15,727 nt of DNA. Origin: a virus. The notes below the pieces were generated by a model. The model was not told where the DNA came from. It did no database searches and saw nothing but the letters and a program-made list of their open reading frames with translations. Shown piece by piece: positions 8,350 to 15,235 of the stretch; the stretch's first letter is position 1; each line of letters starts with the position of its first letter. The position numbers were made by a program, and so were the translations under genes. The stretch is from UHGV virus genome UHGV-0344409; one strand, 5' to 3'.

Positions 8350-8411
8350 CTTCGCACGCCAGCAAAATCTGGCGTCGGGATTTGCACCCCGGATATTCAA
8401 CCGCGACAGAC

Positions 8412-8433
8412 ACACGCCGCGAGCGTGTTTTTT
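8412..8433 (+). terminator. intrinsic terminator-like hairpin in the leader upstream of the ORF6N gene
   Basis: ACACGC-cgcga-GCGTGT followed by TTTTT (8429-8433); about 75 nt downstream of the plus-strand promoter and 165 nt upstream of the ATG at 8598. Confidence 0.4.
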
Positions 8434-8597
8434 GTTGTCGTAAGCACACGCACATCTGAATTATGGTGGGGCGTATGGGGGAGCCGAAAGGCTCGCCGGT
8501 TGGTTGATCCGGTAGTGCAAACCCTGTACGTCTCACCACCCAAAGATTTGCACCTGACGGTGGTGATAGTTAAATTCATCAACCAGAGGGCGTTGTC

Positions 8598-10822: not shown

Positions 10823-11057
10823 TATTCAGCAGGTGCCTGAACGCATGGCTTTATTCAGGTCGTCTGGAAAAGCGCATGAGCAGCGTAATAGCGGAGTTCA
10901 TGGCGAAGAGTATATGAACAGATTATTCGAATGCTATATGAGACTGAAGCACGGAGATCGCTATGACCTGACACGTGATGCTGACGGTTTCTACTGCCGT
11001 GAAGTTGTGAAACGAATGTTTGAAGTGTGGTGTCATTGTAAAGGATGGGGGCTGTGA
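10815..11057 (+). CDS. hypothetical Cys/His-containing small protein (80 aa), coupled to the downstream Q-position gene
   Basis: ATG at 10815 overlaps the ninH stop; the N-terminus MRDIQ.V.ER recalls the start of some Q-family antiterminators; C-terminus ...FYCREVVKRMFEVWCHCKGW; stop TGA overlaps the next ATG (TGATG). Confidence 0.5.
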   Translation: MRDIQQVPERMALFRSSGKAHEQRNSGVHGEEYMNRLFECYMRLKHGDRYDLTRDADGFYCREVVKRMFEVWCHCKGWGL

Positions 11058-11671
11058 TGCGGCTAACCCCAGTATTCGGCATGGTTAACTTTATTAATGA
11101 TGCTCATTTCCGCCGCATATGGAGGCATCCGAAGAAAATCATTAACTCTCGTCAGAAAGCATGGGTTCACTACATGCTACAGGTATGGGGAAATGTTAAC
11201 GCTGGTGATGATTCTCCTTGTGGTGCAATTAACGTTATTGGGCGACTGATGATTCGCAGTCAGTGGAGCGATGACAAAGCTAAGCAGATTGAGTCTGTTG
11301 TCATGCGTCTGTATGAAGAAGACGGACTACGTGGAGATGAACTCCATCAGAAAGCCCGAGAACTGGTCATCCCTCAGTCATCGGCAGGTAATATCATTGC
11401 TCTCGCCAAAGAATCCGATGATGCTGCTTTCGTTGAACGTGTGATGGTTGAGACCTTTCATCGTGAAAGCCCTGTCCGTGATGTAGCTATTAGGCGATAT
11501 TGCAATCGCGACAGCACGCAAGATATCGCCAGGATGATTTCTCAGATAACAGGAGTTGATATTCAGTATTGCCGGAGGCGGGTCGTGTGGTGCGAGAGGG
11601 TCCTTGATTCAGAAATGTTTTATGCAATGAAGCGAGAATTGGAGAAAGAACTTCTAGTGATTGCTGGATGA
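11057..11671 (+). CDS. putative late-gene regulator at the Q position (family not confirmed)
   Basis: 204 aa, translationally coupled (TGATG at 11055-11059); sits after ninH and immediately before a promoter plus intrinsic terminator; size close to lambda Q. I do not recognise the sequence, so the assignment is positional. Confidence 0.4.
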   Translation: MRLTPVFGMVNFINDAHFRRIWRHPKKIINSRQKAWVHYMLQVWGNVNAGDDSPCGAINVIGRLMIRSQWSDDKAKQIESVVMRLYEEDGLRGDELHQKARELVIPQSSAGNIIALAKESDDAAFVERVMVETFHRESPVRDVAIRRYCNRDSTQDIARMISQITGVDIQYCRRRVVWCERVLDSEMFYAMKRELEKELLVIAG

Positions 11672-11695
11672 TGCAAAATATTTTTTGTAAATGCG

Positions 11696-11724
11696 TTGCT
11701 TTCGAGAAATGAAAGTAGTATGTT
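11696..11724 (+). promoter_or_regulatory. PR'-like late promoter candidate
   Basis: TTGCTT (11696-11701), 17 nt spacer, TATGTT (11719-11724), about 25 nt after the Q-position gene stop. Confidence 0.3.
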
Positions 11725-11831
11725 TTGTGTATGCTCGGAGCAAAAGCGCACTGAGAAGCGAAAGAGAAATCCTGATTTACCTCGGTCGTCGATAATATTT
11801 AGGATCGGCATACTGGCTAGATTAGGTAAAG

Positions 11832-11858
11832 GCCTCGGCAGAAATGTCGGGGCTTTTT
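11832..11858 (+). terminator. tR'-like intrinsic terminator
   Basis: GCCTCGGCA-gaaa-TGTCGGGGC (9-bp stem with two G-U pairs, GNRA loop) followed by TTTTTGTTT. Confidence 0.55.
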
Positions 11859-11990
11859 GTTTGCACAACAGGTAAGAGCATTGAACCCGCAGACCTCGTG
11901 GAATTGGTGAAAGGTGTGCGCAGTGCTCTTATCGTTGTGGTGAAGCTCAATGGCGAGCTAGCAGACAGGCGACTGTGAAAATACTAGTCA

Positions 11991-12062
11991 TGTAGCGGAT
12001 CGCCGCGCGTATTGTAATCGGCAGCGCACCGATGGGAGCTGGTTCGATTCCGGCCGCCACAA
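11991..12062 (+). other. tRNA-like element (possible tRNA pseudogene or remnant)
   Basis: Canonical T-arm GCTGG-TTCGATT-CCGGC (12038-12054); acceptor pairing TGTAGCG (11991-11997) with CGCCACA (12055-12061), one A-C mismatch; perfect anticodon-type stem ATCGG/CCGAT (12017-12033). D-arm and 7-nt loop CAGCGCA are non-canonical and CCA is not encoded. Confidence 0.3.
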
Positions 12063-12181
12063 TCCAAACTGAGCCGTAGCCTCTGGGTGTCCTGAATTCA
12101 TCAGTGATAGTTACGCTGCGGCCTTCTACATACGATTTTTGTGAAAAGCGGGTGGCAAGAGGCTGCGAAATTTTTAAATAC

Positions 12182-12399
12182 CTCACAATTCCACAGCTTG
12201 ATGATTGTCTGGCTGCCGGAGAATTTGTTAAAAATTGCATCGCGTGGTGAATCCCCCTCAGCGGCGGGGCATCTGGCAAAGTGTATGATCCAGCGAACAT
12301 GCAAATTCAGTAGCCAGGCTGAATTTACCGGGAGGCACCTGGCACCATGCGACAGACAGAAATTAGGCTATACTTCAGCCCCTCTCCGGAGGGGCTTTT
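12182..12399 (+). repeat. structured non-coding repeat unit, copy A (candidate sRNA), ending in an intrinsic terminator
   Basis: Ordered conserved blocks shared with copy B: CTCACAATTC, GATTGTCTGG, TTTGTTAAAAA, GGTGAATCCCCCT, GCGGnGGGGCAT, CACCGGGAGGCACC, CACCATGC. Hairpin AAATTCAG-tagccagg-CTGAATTT (12303-12326); terminator GCCCCTC-tccg-GAGGGGC-TTTT (12378-12399). Confidence 0.6.
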
Positions 12400-12589
12400 C
12401 TGTGCAGGATGTGTCACAGTTTCCTGAATTCTGAGTACTGTCCTGTTACTCAGGGTGCTATATTTTCTGACGTGATGAAAGTCTGCCGGAAGGCGGAACG
12501 TATCGGAAATGACCCAGTAGAGAAAACGTTGACTCAGATACCGATGCTGAGTTACCGGGAAACCGGCATCACATGACCGCTATCCTTCC

Positions 12590-12613
12590 AGGCTCGCTCC
12601 GGCGGGCCTTTTT
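12590..12613 (+). terminator. intrinsic terminator between the two repeat copies
   Basis: AGGCTCGC-tccg-GCGGGCCT followed by TTTT; same TCCG loop as the copy A and B terminators. Confidence 0.5.
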
Positions 12614-12650
12614 ACTGCAGAAAACAGTTTTCCCGTAAAATGCCACGTTA

Positions 12651-12882
12651 CTCACAATTCAGGCTGGCGATTATTGTCTGGCCAGCGGGAAGTTTGTTAA
12701 AAAAATATGGCATGGTGAATCCCCCTGTGCGGAGGGGCATATCAGCGACAGGTGTTTGGTCACACCCCTTATCCTTTCTGGTGCGGGTTCAGGTGCTGAT
12801 ACTGAACTCACCGGGAGGCACCCTGCACCATGCATGAACGGTACATAGCGCTACTCTCCAGCCCCTCTCCGGAGGGGCTTTC
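12651..12882 (+). repeat. structured non-coding repeat unit, copy B (candidate sRNA), ending in an intrinsic terminator
   Basis: Same block order as copy A; hairpin GGTTCAG-gtgctgata-CTGAACT (12786-12808) carries a compensatory A-T to G-C change relative to copy A; terminator GCCCCTC-tccg-GAGGGGC-TTTC (12861-12882). Confidence 0.6.
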
Positions 12883-12891
12883 TTGTTGGAT

Positions 12892-12921
12892 AAAAAAAAG
12901 CCCGCGCCGGGAAGCGCGGGT
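12892..12921 (-). terminator. minus-strand intrinsic terminator facing the copy B terminator
   Basis: A8 run (12892-12899) then GCCCGCGC-cgggaa-GCGCGGGT; on the minus strand this reads as a stem followed by U8. Confidence 0.45.
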
Positions 12922-13121
12922 GGCAAGGAATAAACAACAAAACGTGAAGTGATCAATTTTCAGCTGGCGAATAATACCTGATAGTAATCACTCTGCGCAA
13001 CTGTATGGTCTTTTTCGTATTGCGGGCTGTAGTCATCCTCCTGTTTCTGAACCCTTGTCCATGACTGACGTCAGCCCGCACCTTATCTTGATTGCATACA
13101 CTATCCCTGCCGGGAGGAATA

Positions 13122-15095
13122 ATGGCATTTAAACACTATGACGTGGTCAGGGCATCATCGCCGTCAGACCTCGCAGGAAAACTGACGCAAAAACTGAAGG
13201 AAGGCTGGCAACCCTATGGTAGTCCGATTATCTCAAACGCGGGTTATGGTGCTGAATTTATCCAGGCTATAGTCGCTGAAGGGGATATGACCTCTCCGGT
13301 AGTTTCACCGGGGGGAGATGGTACCCGGACTGTTGTTGTTGAACCAGAATATTACTTTGTCATTGCGCTGGCCGGACAGTCAAACGGCATGGCGTATGGT
13401 GAAGGCCTGCCGCTGCCGGAGACATATGACCGTCCGGACCCGCGTATTAAACAGCTGGCGCGTCGCAGTACGGTGACACCGGGTGGTGCGGCCTGTGCAT
13501 ATAACGACATCATTCCGGCGGACCACTGCCTGCATGATGTGCAGGATTTGAGCCGTTTTTCTCATCCGAAAGCCAGCGCAGAGCAGTATGGGTGTGTCGG
13601 ACAGGGATTGCATATTGCCAAAAAGCTGTTGCCCTTTATGCCGGAAAATGCGGGTATTTTGTTAGTGCCGTGCTGTCGTGGTGGCTCTGCGTTTACAGCC
13701 GGTGCTGACGGAACGTTCAGTGAAAGTTCAGGAGCGTCGGATAAATCTGAACGATGGGGCGTTGATAAGCCGTTGTATAAAGACCTGCTGACACGCACTC
13801 AGGCCGCGCTGAAGGCAAACCCCAAAAACATACTGCTTTGTGTTGTCTGGATGCAGGGCGAGTTTGATTTAAAACAGGGAGCGTACGCCAGTCAGCCCGC
13901 CATGTTTGATGCCATGGTGGAAAAATACCGTTCTGACCTGGCGGGAGTATCCGGTCAGTGCGCTGGTGCTTCTCCTTCTCTGGTGCCCTGGATTTGTGGT
14001 GACACGACGTACTACTGGAAGGAGACGTATTCAGCGCAATACGATGCCGTCTATGGCGCATACAAAACCAAAGCCGGTAAAAATATCTTCTTTGTGCCGT
14101 TTATGATGGATGACAATGGTCAGAAAGTCGGGACCAATGAACCGTCAGAAGACCCGGATATTCCGGCTATCGGGTATTATGGTTCCGGTGGACGAACGGA
14201 TGCGAAGAGCTGGACAACATCCGATCGTAAAACCCACTTTGGTTCATGGGCGCGTCGCGGAATTATTTCCGACCGTCTGGCAACAGCCATTCTTCTGCAT
14301 GTGGGCAGAGTGGCAGATTTTGTTTCCGGGAAAGTGACAAAAGCCGCGGTTTCTTCAGGCGGAGGCGTATCGCAACCAGCACAGGAGAGTGGCGATACTC
14401 AGCCTGAATCCGTTGTCCCGACAAAGATACAGTCAGTGCTGGCTTATGATGCGAATGCGGAAAATGCCGATCTGGCTTCGCAGGGCTGGACGCTGACAGA
14501 TGTCAAAAACACGCTGGTCAGTGACAGTGGTTCAGGTAAAAAAGCCCTTCGTCTTGAAAAACCAGAAAATGGTCTTGCACAGAAAAAGACCTGGAAAGTA
14601 TCGCACGCAATTGATGCCGGTAAGGGGAAGGAGCTGTTCGATAACGGCGGTGAAATCACGCTGCGCTTTAAAATCCCCGATGATGTATCTCTCAATGCTT
14701 CTGCAAATCAATATTCTGCGGGTATTTACTGGCGCGGTAGTGGATGGCCGGGAGCGGAATCAGAGGAGGGTTATATTGCGGCCTTCTATCTGCAGACTGA
14801 TAAAACAAACATCAATGTGATGTATCATGCAAACACCACATCACAGCGGCTTGGTAGTTATGGTCCGTTCGATCACGACTGGCACACGCTGACTTTCCGC
14901 TTCCCGGGTGGTGGCTCGCTGAACGTCACGCCGGTGCTTGATAATGCAGCAGGAAAACCGTTTACGCTGACCAGATGGACGAATGCAGCCTTTGAGGCCA
15001 ACGCGCTGGCAATTACGGATATTACCGGAAATGCGGCAACTTACCCTGTGCTGATTGAAAGTCTTACTGTTGGTGTGAATGCCGTAGCAGCATAA
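13122..15095 (+). CDS. nanS-p: NanS-p-like prophage sialate 9-O-acetylesterase (DUF1737 N-terminus plus SGNH/SASA esterase domain)
   Basis: 657 aa from the ATG at 13122 with GGGAGG 4 nt upstream (track starts at the TTG at 13092); N-terminal MAFKHYDVVRASSPSDLAGKLTQKLKEGWQPYGSPI; GQSN motif in IALAGQSNGMAYGEG; sits where Stx phages carry nanS-p downstream of stx. Confidence 0.8.
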   Translation: MAFKHYDVVRASSPSDLAGKLTQKLKEGWQPYGSPIISNAGYGAEFIQAIVAEGDMTSPVVSPGGDGTRTVVVEPEYYFVIALAGQSNGMAYGEGLPLPETYDRPDPRIKQLARRSTVTPGGAACAYNDIIPADHCLHDVQDLSRFSHPKASAEQYGCVGQGLHIAKKLLPFMPENAGILLVPCCRGGSAFTAGADGTFSESSGASDKSERWGVDKPLYKDLLTRTQAALKANPKNILLCVVWMQGEFDLKQGAYASQPAMFDAMVEKYRSDLAGVSGQCAGASPSLVPWICGDTTYYWKETYSAQYDAVYGAYKTKAGKNIFFVPFMMDDNGQKVGTNEPSEDPDIPAIGYYGSGGRTDAKSWTTSDRKTHFGSWARRGIISDRLATAILLHVGRVADFVSGKVTKAAVSSGGGVSQPAQESGDTQPESVVPTKIQSVLAYDANAENADLASQGWTLTDVKNTLVSDSGSGKKALRLEKPENGLAQKKTWKVSHAIDAGKGKELFDNGGEITLRFKIPDDVSLNASANQYSAGIYWRGSGWPGAESEEGYIAAFYLQTDKTNINVMYHANTTSQRLGSYGPFDHDWHTLTFRFPGGGSLNVTPVLDNAAGKPFTLTRWTNAAFEANALAITDITGNAATYPVLIESLTVGVNAVAA

Positions 15096-15101
15096 CAGAC
15101 G

Positions 15102-15137
15102 AAAAAAACCGCCAGCAACAGGAATGGAGACTGGCGG
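15102..15137 (-). terminator. minus-strand intrinsic terminator just after the nanS-p stop
   Basis: A7 (15102-15108) then CCGCCAG-15 nt loop-CTGGCGG; a terminator with U7 on the minus strand only; the plus-strand reading lacks a U tract. Confidence 0.45.
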
Positions 15138-15235
15138 AGGTAATCCCAATGGAGAATCTAACGAAAGGATGCTTTCGACATCAATCATTTCTAAATGAAA
15201 ACAGTTCTCATTGTCAACAGTAACGGTAATAAACC

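What the first reader, a model, noticed from the sequence alone, without database searches (positions are those of the whole stretch)
12182..12882. Two copies of a ~220-bp structured non-coding element with a covarying hairpin and identical terminators (candidate tandem sRNA genes)
Copy A (12182-12399) and copy B (12651-12882) share the same ordered sequence blocks, but the spacers between blocks differ in length by non-multiples of 3 (11 vs 10 nt; about 55 vs 68 nt), so the conservation is not protein-level. The internal hairpin keeps its pairing through a compensatory change (A: AAATTCAG/CTGAATTT; B: GGTTCAG/CTGAACT), which points to selection on RNA or DNA secondary structure. Each copy ends in the same terminator, GCCCCTC-TCCG-GAGGGGC plus a U tract. 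The block sits between the Q-position gene and the late gene nanS-p, the moron slot where lambdoid phages are known to carry tRNAs, toxins and regulatory RNAs. I cannot tell from sequence whether this matches an already named prophage sRNA.
Basis: seen in the sequence. Interest (0 to 1): 0.72.

Follow-up and report, generated by a model that had tools for sequence, protein, structure and literature searches.

The report
Tandem STnc100-family prophage small RNA genes
The two repeats are real but already catalogued: they are copies of the prophage small RNA STnc100 (Rfam RF02076, a relative of EcOnc27 and PasD), and a third, divergent copy lies between them, so the finding is mostly ordinary apart from a few new structural details.

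Summary
Copies A and B both match the curated Rfam family STnc100 (RF02076) full-length, at 138.7 and 129.9 bits against a gathering score of 47. The covarying hairpin and the identical terminators are as described. STnc100 is a known prophage sRNA. In the Stx2 phage Sp5 it is the Hfq-bound EcOnc27/sRNA103, and the Hfq-associated EPEC sRNAs PasD1/PasD2 are structural relatives.

That array, or its middle member, is present in 570-673 of 5426 complete E. coli genomes.

Each gene has a promoter, a roughly 110-nt conserved multi-helix core, a hypervariable single-stranded tail and a terminator. By homology, the tail and terminator most likely bind Hfq and pair with mRNAs.

Incremental new points:
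- The tandem triple itself.
- A covarying pseudoknot between the segment after P2 and the P4 loop, not mentioned in the literature I could search.
- Family members in about a quarter of sampled Enterobacteriaceae species that sit terminator-less in front of kdgM porin genes.

Function remains untested. Novelty: already known. Interest is low to moderate.

The parts
12205..12234 (+). Predicted sigma-70 promoter of copy A: -35 TTGTCT (12205-12210), 18-nt spacer with an extended -10 TG (12226-12227), -10 TAAAAA (12229-12234)
   Evidence: Read from the sequence. Family-wide, A at position -12 relative to UGGUG occurs in 129 of 163 unique upstream regions, and there is a purine at -3. The RNA-seq-mapped 5' end of PasD2 (NC_011601 741157, PMC8550237 Table S6) falls at that -3 G. 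The simple consensus scan did not call this promoter, so it is inferred.
12242..12400 (+). STnc100 copy A, predicted ~159-nt RNA. Core 12242-12350: P1 12242-12249/12343-12350, P2 12253-12257/12266-12269, P4 12303-12310/12319-12326, P5 12328-12332/12338-12342. Pseudoknot X 12272-12277 with X' 12313-12318. Tail 12351-12376. Terminator 12377-12396 plus U tract.
   Evidence: Rfam RF02076 138.7 bits, E 4e-31, model 1-206. Own model R1 79.6 bits. The minimum-free-energy fold reproduces P1, P2, P4, P5 and the terminator. Coordinates.
12456..12464 (+). Predicted extended -10 promoter of the middle element M: TGc-TATATT, with no good -35
   Evidence: Read from the sequence. Identical in the 86% variant in L003. 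Inferred, not tested.
12470..12614 (+). Divergent third family member M, predicted ~145-nt RNA. P1 12472-12477/12567-12572, P2 12482-12487/12492-12497, P4 12531-12537/12547-12553, P5 12555-12558/12563-12566. Pseudoknot X 12500-12506 with X' 12541-12547. Tail 12574-12589. Terminator 12590-12609 plus U5.
   Evidence: Rfam STnc100 30 bits (below the gathering score of 47), E 5e-5, full model length. Model R1, built without it, gives 19.9 bits here and 29 bits for the L003 variant. P2 changes compensatorily between variants, CUGCC/GGCGG versus CUGUC/GGCAG. Folding z-score -2.48, and the minimum-free-energy fold contains the X:X' helix. Present in 673 of 5426 E. coli genomes.
12674..12703 (+). Predicted sigma-70 promoter of copy B: -35 TTGTCT (12674-12679), 18-nt spacer with an extended -10 TG, -10 TAAAAA (12698-12703)
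   Evidence: Same layout as copy A. The first 13 nt of PasD1/PasD2 RNA match window 12710-12722 exactly.
12710..12883 (+). STnc100 copy B, predicted ~174-nt RNA. P1 12710-12717/12826-12833, P2 12721-12725/12734-12737, P4 12785-12792/12802-12809, P5 12811-12815/12821-12825. Pseudoknot X 12740-12746 with X' 12795-12801. Tail 12834-12859. Terminator 12860-12879.
   Evidence: Rfam RF02076 129.9 bits, E 8e-29. R1 86.0 bits. Coordinates.
12893..12946 (-). Convergent minus-strand sRNA-like element: terminator CCCGCGCTTCCCGGCGCGGG plus U8. It forms a convergent pair with copy B.
   Evidence: Terminator scan. 87% identity over 54 nt to the EPEC RIL-seq sRNA candidate E2348C_1409.E2348C_1408.IGR (sequence from PMC8550237 supplementary Fig. 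S5). Same layout as STnc100/EcOnc27 with AsxR in Sp5. It is not an AsxR or AgvB member (no Rfam match).
12183..12192 (+). Conserved CTCACAATTC box about 50-60 nt upstream of the predicted start of copy A. A second copy lies at 12652-12661, upstream of B.
   Evidence: Invariant between A and B and kept in the L003 and L004 variants. Not conserved across genera. Role unknown.

Best explanation
The block 12182-12883 is a head-to-tail array of three paralogous genes of the STnc100/PasD family of prophage-encoded small RNAs. It lies in the moron region downstream of the Q antiterminator and upstream of nanS-p.

Each gene is its own transcription unit: a sigma-70 promoter with an extended -10, a start about 3 nt before UGGUG, and an intrinsic terminator. 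The predicted RNAs are about 159 (A), 145 (M) and 174 (B) nt.

Each RNA has two modules.
1. A conserved 5' core of about 105-125 nt. A closing helix P1 encloses four hairpins (P2, the variable P3, P4 and P5), and a pseudoknot between the segment after P2 and the P4 loop locks it further.
2. A 16-27-nt single-stranded tail that differs completely between A, M and B, followed by the terminator hairpin.

By homology with EcOnc27 and PasD1/PasD2, the tail and terminator bind Hfq, and the tail base-pairs with host and phage mRNAs. The three paralogs would then give the lysogen three target specificities on one stable scaffold. The core most likely acts as a folding and stability domain.

During lytic growth, Q-modified RNA polymerase from pR' should read through all three terminators.

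Shown here: family membership, structure, covariation, array architecture and distribution. Inferred: promoters and start sites, by analogy with the mapped PasD 5' end. Inferred from relatives only: Hfq binding and trans base-pairing.
For: **Family membership.** Rfam RF02076 scores 138.7 and 129.9 bits against a gathering score of 47. M scores 30 bits over the full model length. An independent model built without M or PasD finds M at 19.9-29 bits and PasD1/2 at 32 bits.

**Structure.** 95.5% of cells are paired, against 41-54% when partners are slid, and 17 of 25 pairs change on both sides. For the pseudoknot, the alignment-free test gives z = 11.5 with 0 of 5000 permutations. On the unfitted alignment it is 65.7% paired against 46.1% shuffled (0 of 500), and 24-43% when slid.

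**Own terminators.** Found by the scan. 116 of 173 non-kdgM family members have a terminator-like site starting within 90 nt of the core.

**Promoter and start.** A conserved -10 A and a -3 purine. The PasD 5' end aligns to 12710.

**Literature on relatives.**
- In Sp5 the STnc100 copy (207.7 bits) is EcOnc27/sRNA103, which is Hfq-crosslinked and Northern-verified (PMC4104026, PMC7873438, PMC12711010).
- PasD1/2 are abundant 172-173-nt RNAs that form Hfq RIL-seq chimeras through a UGUGAG seed in the tail (PMC8550237 text and Table S6). PasD was linked to STnc100 by Zhu et al. 2026 (10.64898/2026.05.13.724894).
- EDL933 has 11 STnc100 copies that are transcribed, and one was Northern-positive (PMC5331693).
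- RpoD binds STnc100 promoters in Salmonella LT2 (PMC10794520).

**Not coding.** No Pfam hits. Substitutions in the M ORF fall 7/9/8 by codon position, and the ATG is lost in the variant.
Against: - No transcript data exist for this particular array.
- The U tracts are short and interrupted (UUUUCUGU, UUUUUACU, UUUCUUGUU), which is poorer for Hfq than the U8 of PasD.
- In ordinary Hfq sRNAs the seed is the most conserved part. Here the putative seed is the least conserved, and the core is nearly invariant across genera. That suggests the core itself is recognised by something.
- PasD levels are not reduced in the hfq deletion strain (log2 fold changes +0.55 and -0.18, PMC8550237 Table S2).
- About a quarter of species-level loci carry the core without a terminator in front of kdgM, which looks like a cis-acting leader.
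- Single-sequence folding z-scores for A and B are unremarkable (-1.2 and -0.9).
Confidence: 0.62

Rival explanations
1. Cis-acting leader or attenuator. The conserved core senses a factor or ligand and controls whether transcription or translation proceeds past the tail and terminator into the downstream genes: nanS-p and the late genes in phages, kdgM-pel in chromosomes. The terminated RNAs would then be by-products, which might secondarily act in trans.
For: - In 19-22 of 80 species-representative loci the core lies 90-230 nt upstream of a KdgM-family porin gene (Pfam E 3e-77), on the same strand, followed by a periplasmic pectate lyase gene.
- Only 5 of 21 of those loci have a terminator-like site, against 116 of 173 elsewhere. 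L021 has none and L054 only a weak one.
- A promoter, an invariant structured domain, a variable platform with a terminator and then a gene is the architecture of a riboswitch or attenuator.
- In E. coli copies, P2 (CCCCCUGUGCGGAGGGG) resembles the terminator (CCCCUCUCCGGAGGGG), and the minimum-free-energy fold of B pairs the two.
- Copy B and PasD2 both precede a sialate esterase gene, and the chromosomal E. coli esterase nanS shares an operon with the KdgM-family porin nanC (own knowledge).
Against: - In the window, about 240 nt and a convergent minus-strand terminator separate the terminator of B from the nanS-p start.
- A and M are followed by another sRNA gene, not by a protein gene.
- Each copy has its own promoter.
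- The similarity between P2 and the terminator is confined to the E. coli lineage.
- PasD forms trans chimeras on Hfq (PMC8550237).
- No ligand or factor is suggested by any data.
Confidence: 0.15
2. The core is itself the effector. It would be a compact pseudoknotted, possibly tRNA-derived, RNA that binds or decoys a conserved host or phage factor. The variable tail would be only a linker to the terminator.
For: - The core sequences GGUGAAUCCCCCU..GCGG.GGGG and CACCGGGAGGCACCCGGCACCA are near-invariant across many Enterobacteriaceae genera, while the rest diverges to about 41% mean column identity.
- The topology of a closing helix with four arms, with P5 abutting the 3' strand of P1, resembles a class II tRNA.
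- A tRNA-like element at 11936-12062 lies directly upstream. It has an intact acceptor stem, D-arm and T-arm and a 74-nt insert (tRNA model 26.5 bits), and it also matches the core model weakly (13.8 bits; E 1.3e-4 in the local search, E 0.02 over 37 kb).
- The arrays lie next to tRNA genes in L003, L004 and Sp5.
Against: - The invariance is partly imposed by my search pattern.
- The Rfam tRNA model and ARAGORN do not detect A, M or B.
- Model R1 does not hit the three genuine tRNAs in L003.
- M and PasD change the 'invariant' loops, yet M persists in hundreds of genomes and PasD is abundantly expressed (PMC8550237).
- No partner is known.
Confidence: 0.12
3. Anti-sRNA sponges. The tails pair with core-genome sRNAs, not with mRNAs, as shown for the neighbouring prophage RNAs AgvB and AsxR.
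For: The locus is the same (convergent sRNA pairs 3' of pR') and belongs to the same Hfq-bound prophage RNA population as AgvB/AsxR (PMC4104026). In Sp5 the STnc100 copy sits 1 nt from AsxR.
Against: The anti-sRNAs are 51-60 nt with a conserved 3' region and a variable 5' end, and belong to the other member of the convergent pair. A, M and B have no Rfam AsxR or AgvB similarity. The listed PasD RIL-seq partners are mostly mRNAs (PMC8550237 supplement).
Confidence: 0.07
4. The repeats are protein-coding, or are remnants of REP, IS or other repeat elements.
For: ORFs of 97, 55 and 65 aa overlap A, M and B. The PhiR5_2 record annotates 'hypothetical proteins' over part of the block, on the minus strand over copy A and on the plus strand over M. 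The M ORF matches a PHROG of unknown function.
Against: - None of the overlapping ORFs has a Pfam match.
- Indels between A and B are not multiples of 3.
- Substitutions in the M ORF fall 7/9/8 by codon position, and the ATG is lost in the 86% variant.
- RNA covariation is strong.
- Each copy matches the curated sRNA model full-length.
- The copies are spaced as genes, each with a promoter and a terminator.
Confidence: 0.01

Closest known systems
STnc100 (Rfam RF02076), the same RNA as EcOnc27 / sRNA103 of the Stx2 phage Sp5
   Same: A and B match the full-length model far above the gathering score. They have the same five-helix core, the same position downstream of Q/pR' and upstream of nanS-p, and the same convergent partner sRNA. 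They are also on the same strand as the late genes.
   Different: There are three copies in tandem here, where Sp5 has one. V1, pseudoknot and tail sequences differ (the blastn match of A to Sp5-type copies is about 70% identical). M falls below the family's gathering score. No stx genes are present.
PasD1/PasD2 (EPEC E2348/69; EHEC EcOnc13)
   Same: The core fold is the same: P1, P2, P4 and the pseudoknot are kept with other bases (AUGAUC/GAUCAU). The first 13 nt are identical to B. The position between Q and a sialate esterase or the lysis genes is the same, and both have a promoter with a TAAAAA -10 box. Both are sub-threshold or divergent relatives of STnc100 (41 and 38 bits with Rfam; 32 bits with R1).
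   Different: The PasD tail carries the UGUGAG seed and a U8 terminator, and none of A, M or B has that tail. PasD lacks a full P5. PasD copies are reported as distal, never tandem (Zhu et al. 2026).
Convergent sRNA pairs in the lambdoid moron site (Tree et al. 2014): EcOnc27 with AsxR, and AgvB loci
   Same: B and the minus-strand element at 12893-12946 face each other with adjacent terminators, 3' of pR' and Q, as in Sp5.
   Different: The minus-strand partner here is not an AsxR or AgvB family member (no Rfam match). It resembles a different EPEC RIL-seq candidate (87%).
Tandem sibling sRNAs (OmrA/OmrB, PrrF1/PrrF2, Qrr1-5)
   Same: Adjacent paralogous sRNA genes, each with its own promoter and terminator.
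   Different: In those pairs the seed is the conserved part and the rest diverges. Here the large structured core is conserved and the presumed seed tails are unrelated (11 of 25 identical between A and B).

Membership tests
STnc100 (Rfam RF02076) | Score at or above the curated gathering score (47 bits) over the full-length covariance model | tested here: met
   A 138.7 bits and B 129.9 bits, both over model positions 1-206. M, at 30 bits, does NOT meet it and is filed only as a divergent relative.
STnc100 (Rfam RF02076) | Conserved multi-helix secondary structure kept by compensatory changes | tested here: met
   RNAalifold on 42 diverse members: 26 pairs, of which 10 have double changes. 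On 110 distinct sequences: 95.5% paired and 17 of 25 pairs with double changes, against 41-54% paired when partners are slid. A, M and B keep every helix.
STnc100 (Rfam RF02076) | Prophage context downstream of the late antiterminator Q | tested here: met
   Q-like ORF 11045-11671 (PHROG 753). nanS-p ORF with SASA and DUF1737 domains. The window is 100% identical to Escherichia phage PhiR5_2.
STnc100 (Rfam RF02076) | Expressed as a discrete small RNA | not testable with these tools
   Shown only for relatives: EDL933 copies by RNA-seq and Northern (PMC5331693), EcOnc27 by Northern and Hfq-CRAC (PMC7873438), PasD by Northern (PMC8550237).
Hfq-dependent base-pairing sRNA | Hfq binding, a 3' hairpin with a long U tail, and a seed that pairs with targets | tested here: inconclusive
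   Terminator hairpins are present, but the U tracts are only 3-5 uninterrupted U. The tails are unpaired in the minimum-free-energy folds of A and M. Hfq binding and targets cannot be tested here.
PasD | Sequence identity to PasD1/PasD2, including the tail seed UGUGAG | tested here: not met
   Only the first 13 nt match B. The alignment shows unrelated V1 and tail regions. The relationship is at the level of the core fold.
Anti-sRNA (AsxR/AgvB) | Rfam RF02703 or RF02702 match; 51-60 nt; conserved 3' region of about 42 nt | tested here: not met
   No match at E up to 5 anywhere in 11600-13200, whereas Sp5 gives AsxR at 88 bits.
tRNA or tRNA-like RNA | Detection by a tRNA model (Rfam RF00005, ARAGORN) | tested here: not met
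   ARAGORN finds none in the window. RF00005 has no hit on A, M or B. Only the neighbouring element at 11936-12062 scores, at 26.5 bits against a gathering score of 29.
Cis-regulatory leader or riboswitch | Lies in the 5' UTR of the regulated gene, with a switchable terminator or ribosome-binding-site structure | tested here: inconclusive
   The window copies are separated from nanS-p by about 240 nt and a convergent terminator, and A and M precede other sRNA genes. The kdgM-linked relatives do fit a 5' UTR position.

The most novel reading that the evidence does not exclude
The near-invariant, pseudoknotted five-helix core of STnc100/PasD is a functional RNA domain in its own right, not just a scaffold for an Hfq seed. 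It could be a sensor, a factor-binding module, or tRNA-derived. Enterobacteria would then use it in cis as a leader of kdgM-type porin and pectate-lyase operons, and lambdoid phages would have captured it, multiplied it into arrays of 2-4 and fused it to diversifying Hfq-binding tails.
Probability: 0.2. Interest if true: 0.6.

Novelty: already known. Interest (0 to 1): 0.3.

Why it matters
STnc100-family RNAs sit next to Shiga toxin and sialate esterase genes in pathogenic E. coli. They are abundant and Hfq-bound, and sequence features overlapping one copy were among the top predictors of haemolytic uraemic syndrome (HUS) in a machine-learning study (PMC12711010). Their function is still unknown.

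For this window the practical result is an annotation. The two 'hypothetical proteins' annotated in the identical phage record, on the minus strand over copy A and on the plus strand over the middle element, should be replaced by three sRNA genes, plus a convergent fourth on the other strand.

The incremental observations give experimenters concrete handles:
- A three-gene array is present in about 10-12% of complete E. coli genomes.
- A divergent paralog is invisible to Rfam-threshold pipelines.
- A covarying pseudoknot is available for mutate-and-rescue tests.
- Terminator-less copies sit in front of kdgM.

They also raise the question of whether the conserved core does more than stabilise a seed.

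Tried and rejected
1. **LexA box upstream of M.** TACTG-N10-CAG at about 12436-12455 is not conserved in the 86% variant, so I dropped it.
2. **svsR.** This prophage sRNA that limits phage infection (PMC12803456) lies at the 3' end of cI, so it is unrelated.
3. **PasA, PasB and PasC in the window.** blastn-short gave only 14-17-nt terminator-like matches. No members were found, although a PasA/C-like minus-strand terminator lies after nanS-p.
4. **Column-wise pseudoknot count on the model-fitted alignment A5.** No clean diagonal, because loop registers drift. I replaced it with an alignment-free permutation test and a count on the unfitted MAFFT alignment.
5. **Complementarity of the tails to the window.** The scan only returned the trivial self-antisense hits, because I did not exclude the element's own locus. 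It is therefore uninformative. Genome-wide target prediction was not possible without a host genome in the sandbox.
6. **Coding potential of the overlapping ORFs.** Rejected.
7. **Literature searches.** 'EcOnc13' and 'kdgM' with 'sRNA' returned nothing relevant.
8. **Single-sequence thermodynamic z-scores.** These are weak for A and B. The support for the structure comes from covariation, not stability.
Full report
**1. The observation**

The window is a lambdoid phage. The 1420-bp stretch 11672-13091 is 100% identical to Escherichia phage PhiR5_2. The 741-bp block 12160-12900 is 100% identical to the chromosome of E. coli strain G1/2.

- Aligning 12170-12410 with 12640-12895 gives 81% mean column identity in ordered blocks, with indels of 1, 3, 11, 1 and 2 nt.
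- The hairpin is AAATTCAG/CTGAATTT in A and GGGTTCAG/CTGAACTC in B. Two A-U pairs become G-C and one becomes G-U.
- The 20-nt terminator AGCCCCTCTCCGGAGGGGCT is identical in both copies.
- The flanks are as stated. ORF 11045-11671 is Q-like (PHROG 753, E 3.5e-68, although it has no Pfam hit). ORF 13092-15095 carries DUF1737 and SASA esterase domains, as expected of nanS-p.

**2. What it is**

A scan of the window against Rfam 15 places both copies in the curated family STnc100 (RF02076). Both are full-length matches, at 138.7 and 129.9 bits against a gathering score of 47, with E-values of 4e-31 and 8e-29.

What the literature says about the family:
- In the Stx2 phage Sp5 (VT2-Sakai) the STnc100 copy scores 207.7 bits. 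It lies about 75 nt after stx2B and is convergent with AsxR.
- That RNA is EcOnc27, also called sRNA103. It is Hfq-crosslinked and Northern-verified (PMC4104026, PMC7873438, PMC12711010).
- Tree et al. [quoted passage not shown]
- EDL933 has 11 annotated STnc100 copies that are transcribed, and one was seen on a Northern blot (PMC5331693).
- Salmonella LT2 copies bind RpoD (PMC10794520).
- STnc100 RNA was detected in STEC outer-membrane vesicles (PMC12370729).
- Zhu, Shabalina and Storz (bioRxiv 2026, 10.64898/2026.05.13.724894) showed that the EPEC Hfq RIL-seq sRNAs PasD1/PasD2 (PMC8550237) are structural relatives of STnc100, and that PasD sits between Q and a sialate esterase gene.

**3. 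A third member**

The 'spacer' between A and B contains another STnc100-like element. Rfam gives 30 bits (below the gathering score) at E 5e-5, aligned over the full model length with every helix rebuilt from different bases.

I built an independent covariance model, R1. Its seed was 42 diverse core sequences (<75% pairwise identity), 38 from other species' genomes and viral contigs plus window copies A and B and one E. coli prophage copy; M and PasD were left out.
- It finds M at 19.9 bits, and the 86% variant of M in another E. coli prophage at 29 bits.
- It finds PasD1/PasD2 at 32 bits.

M looks functional:
- It has an extended -10 box (TGcTATATT) and the best terminator of the three, with an 8-bp stem and U5.
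- Its P2 changes compensatorily between the two variants, CUGCC/GGCGG versus CUGUC/GGCAG.
- Its folding z-score is -2.48.

M is not PasD, because the V1 and tail sequences are unrelated. The 55-aa ORF inside M matches a PHROG of unknown function. However, its substitutions fall 7/9/8 over the three codon positions and its ATG is lost in the variant, so it is not coding.

**4. Anatomy**

The consensus core has a closing helix P1 (GUGGUG/CACCAC) that encloses four hairpins:
- P2 (CCCCC..GGGG), which is invariant;
- P3, which closes a hypervariable insert V1;
- P5 (CCGGG-AGGCA-CCCGG), which is invariant.

On 110 distinct sequences, 95.5% of cells are paired (87.1% in shuffles, 41-54% with slid partners), and 17 of 25 pairs show changes on both sides.

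I also found a pseudoknot: the segment just after P2 is complementary to the P4 loop.

| RNA | Segment after P2 | P4 loop |
|---|---|---|
| A | UCUGGC | GCCAGG |
| B | UAUCAGC | GCUGAUA |
| M | GUAUCGG | CCGAUGC |
| PasD | AUGAUC | GAUCAU |
| Sp5 | CUGGU | ACCAG |

Evidence for the pseudoknot:
- An alignment-free test on 77 non-redundant pairs gives a mean best run of 6.51 bp against 4.99 for permuted partners (z = 11.5). Duplex energy is -9.25 against -5.86 kcal/mol (z = -12.8). None of 5000 permutations reaches either value.
- On the unfitted MAFFT alignment, the six pairs are 65.7% paired against 46.1% shuffled (0 of 500) and 24-43% when slid. 71 cells have double changes against 32 expected.
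- Caveats: I chose the columns after inspecting the pairing matrix, and the relatedness of the sequences inflates such statistics.
- The pseudoknot is not mentioned in Zhu et al., and the structure line of a covariance model cannot show one.

After the core comes a tail of 16-27 nt that is unrelated between A, M and B (11 of 25 identical between A and B). This is where PasD carries its RIL-seq seed UGUGAG. The terminator follows.

Upstream, a TAAAAA-type -10 box is conserved: A at position -12 relative to UGGUG in 129 of 163 unique upstream regions, and a purine at -3. The RNA-seq-mapped PasD2 5' end (741157, PMC8550237 Table S6) is that -3 G, and the first 13 nt of PasD match window 12710-12722. 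The predicted RNAs are therefore A 12242-12400, M 12470-12614 and B 12710-12883.

**5. Distribution**

- The core motif occurs in many Enterobacteriaceae genera, among them Kosakonia, Klebsiella, Raoultella, Enterobacter, Citrobacter, Leclercia, Superficieibacter, Trabulsiella and Erwinia, and in more than 120 viral contigs.
- 2679 of 5426 complete E. coli genomes have a match to the block, and 570 carry at least 80% of it.
- M is present in 673 genomes, as two variants of about 99% and 86% identity. The same triple occurs in E. albertii.
- Arrays are recurrent. 25 of 205 locus-strands have 2-3 exact-core copies, spaced about 257-267 bp (directly adjacent) or 468-490 bp (with an intervening divergent member).
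- Superficieibacter and Leclercia loci have 3-4 members within 1.5 kb, which Rfam calls above its gathering score.
- Zhu et al. state that PasA and PasD copies are distal and not tandem. The papers I could search do not describe tandem STnc100 arrays.

**6. A second context**

In 19-22 of 80 species-representative loci the core is not in a prophage.
- It lies 90-230 nt upstream of a KdgM-family porin gene (PF06178, E 3e-77), on the same strand, followed by a periplasmic pectate lyase gene (PF06917). A divergent LuxR-type regulator lies upstream.
- Rfam calls these copies STnc100 at 79-84 bits.
- Only 5 of 21 have a terminator-like site starting within 90 nt of the core, against 116 of 173 elsewhere (examples).
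- There the core looks like a 5' leader.

**7. Mechanism**

I commit to independently transcribed, Hfq-associated, trans-acting sRNAs with a modular design: a conserved pseudoknotted core that acts as a stability and folding module, and a variable tail that acts as the seed. Three paralogs would give three specificities. In the lytic cycle, Q-modified polymerase would read through them.
- Identity and architecture are shown here.
- Promoters and start sites are inferred by analogy with the mapped PasD 5' end.
- Hfq binding and base-pairing are inferred from EcOnc27 and PasD only.

Points that weaken this model:
- the short U tracts;
- the inverted conservation pattern (core far more conserved than the presumed seed);
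- PasD levels that do not drop in an hfq deletion strain (PMC8550237 Table S2);
- the kdgM leader context.

The rivals are therefore a cis-acting attenuator or leader, a factor-binding or tRNA-derived core, and an anti-sRNA sponge. Coding and repeat-element explanations are excluded.

**8. Verdict**

The finding is a correct observation of an already known family. The new elements are incremental: the tandem triple, the sub-threshold middle paralog, the pseudoknot and the kdgM-linked members. Interest is low to moderate. The function of the family remains open, and the core's conservation hints at more than a scaffold.

Noticed in passing
window 11936-12062 (+): A tRNA-like element with an intact acceptor stem (UGUGGUG/CGCCACA), D-arm and T-arm (GCUGG-UUCGAUU-CCGGC), but a 74-nt insert where the anticodon arm should be. 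The Rfam tRNA model gives 26.5 bits against a gathering score of 29, and ARAGORN finds nothing. It also matches my STnc100 core model weakly (13.8 bits). The surrounding ~320 bp are 91-93% identical in HK75 and in several other lambdoid Escherichia and Salmonella phages.
   Followed up: partly
window 12893-12946 (-): An sRNA-like element convergent with copy B, with a strong terminator plus U8. It is 87% identical to the EPEC RIL-seq candidate E2348C_1409.E2348C_1408.IGR. It is present in the window and in L003 but absent from the L004 and L040 versions of the array. It is not an AsxR or AgvB member.
   Followed up: partly
L005-L086, e.g. L021:1321-1530, L015, L054: In about a quarter of sampled Enterobacteriaceae species the STnc100 core sits 90-230 nt upstream of a kdgM-family porin gene followed by a pectate lyase gene, mostly without a terminator. 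This looks like a leader and not a free-standing sRNA. The E. coli porin NanC is a KdgM-family member that shares an operon with the esterase NanS, whose phage homologue follows copy B (own knowledge).
   Followed up: partly
L210 (VT2-Sakai) ~2508-2522: The two HUS-predictive changes reported at +90 and +103 after stx2B (PMC12711010) fall, by my numbering, in the extended -10 region and just before the predicted start (G2523) of the STnc100/EcOnc27 gene. They would therefore be in its promoter, not in the RNA. The numbering is uncertain by 1-2 nt.
   Followed up: no
window 8356-8433 and 8459-8543 (+): Rfam matches above the gathering score to isrK (75.4 bits) and to the C4 antisense RNA (74.4 bits), adjacent to each other. 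This resembles the regulatory RNA module upstream of an antirepressor gene in P1/P7- and Gifsy-type phages (own knowledge).
   Followed up: no
window 11832-11862 (+): A 9-bp hairpin, GCCUCGGCA-GAAA-UGUCGGGGC, followed by UUUUUGUUUG lies about 160 nt after the Q stop codon. This is the position of tR', the end of the short pR' transcript (the place occupied by StxS in Stx phages). The terminator scan did not list it, so this was read by eye.
   Followed up: no
window ~15101-15145 (-): Directly after the nanS-p stop codon there is a minus-strand terminator, CCGCCAGUCUCCAUUCCUGUUGCUGGCGG plus U7. It is at the position and in the orientation where EPEC carries PasA or PasC. Only a 16-17-nt match to the PasA terminator was found.
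   Followed up: partly
window 12183-12192 and 12652-12661 (+): A CTCACAATTC box about 50-60 nt upstream of the predicted starts of A and B. It is kept in E. coli variants but not across genera. It contains CUCACA, the motif PasD targets share (PMC8550237), which may be coincidence.
   Followed up: no
window 12721-12737 versus 12860-12879: In E. coli copies, P2 (CCCCCUGUGCGGAGGGG) and the terminator (CCCCUCUCCGGAGGGG) are near-repeats. The minimum-free-energy fold of copy B pairs them with each other instead of forming the consensus fold. This could be an alternative conformer or simply a folding artefact.
   Followed up: no
window 11045-11671 (+): The Q-position protein (208 aa) has no Pfam match at E up to 0.01 but matches PHROG 753, 'anti-termination protein Q-like', at E 3.5e-68. 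This Q type is not covered by the Pfam antiterminator families.
   Followed up: partly
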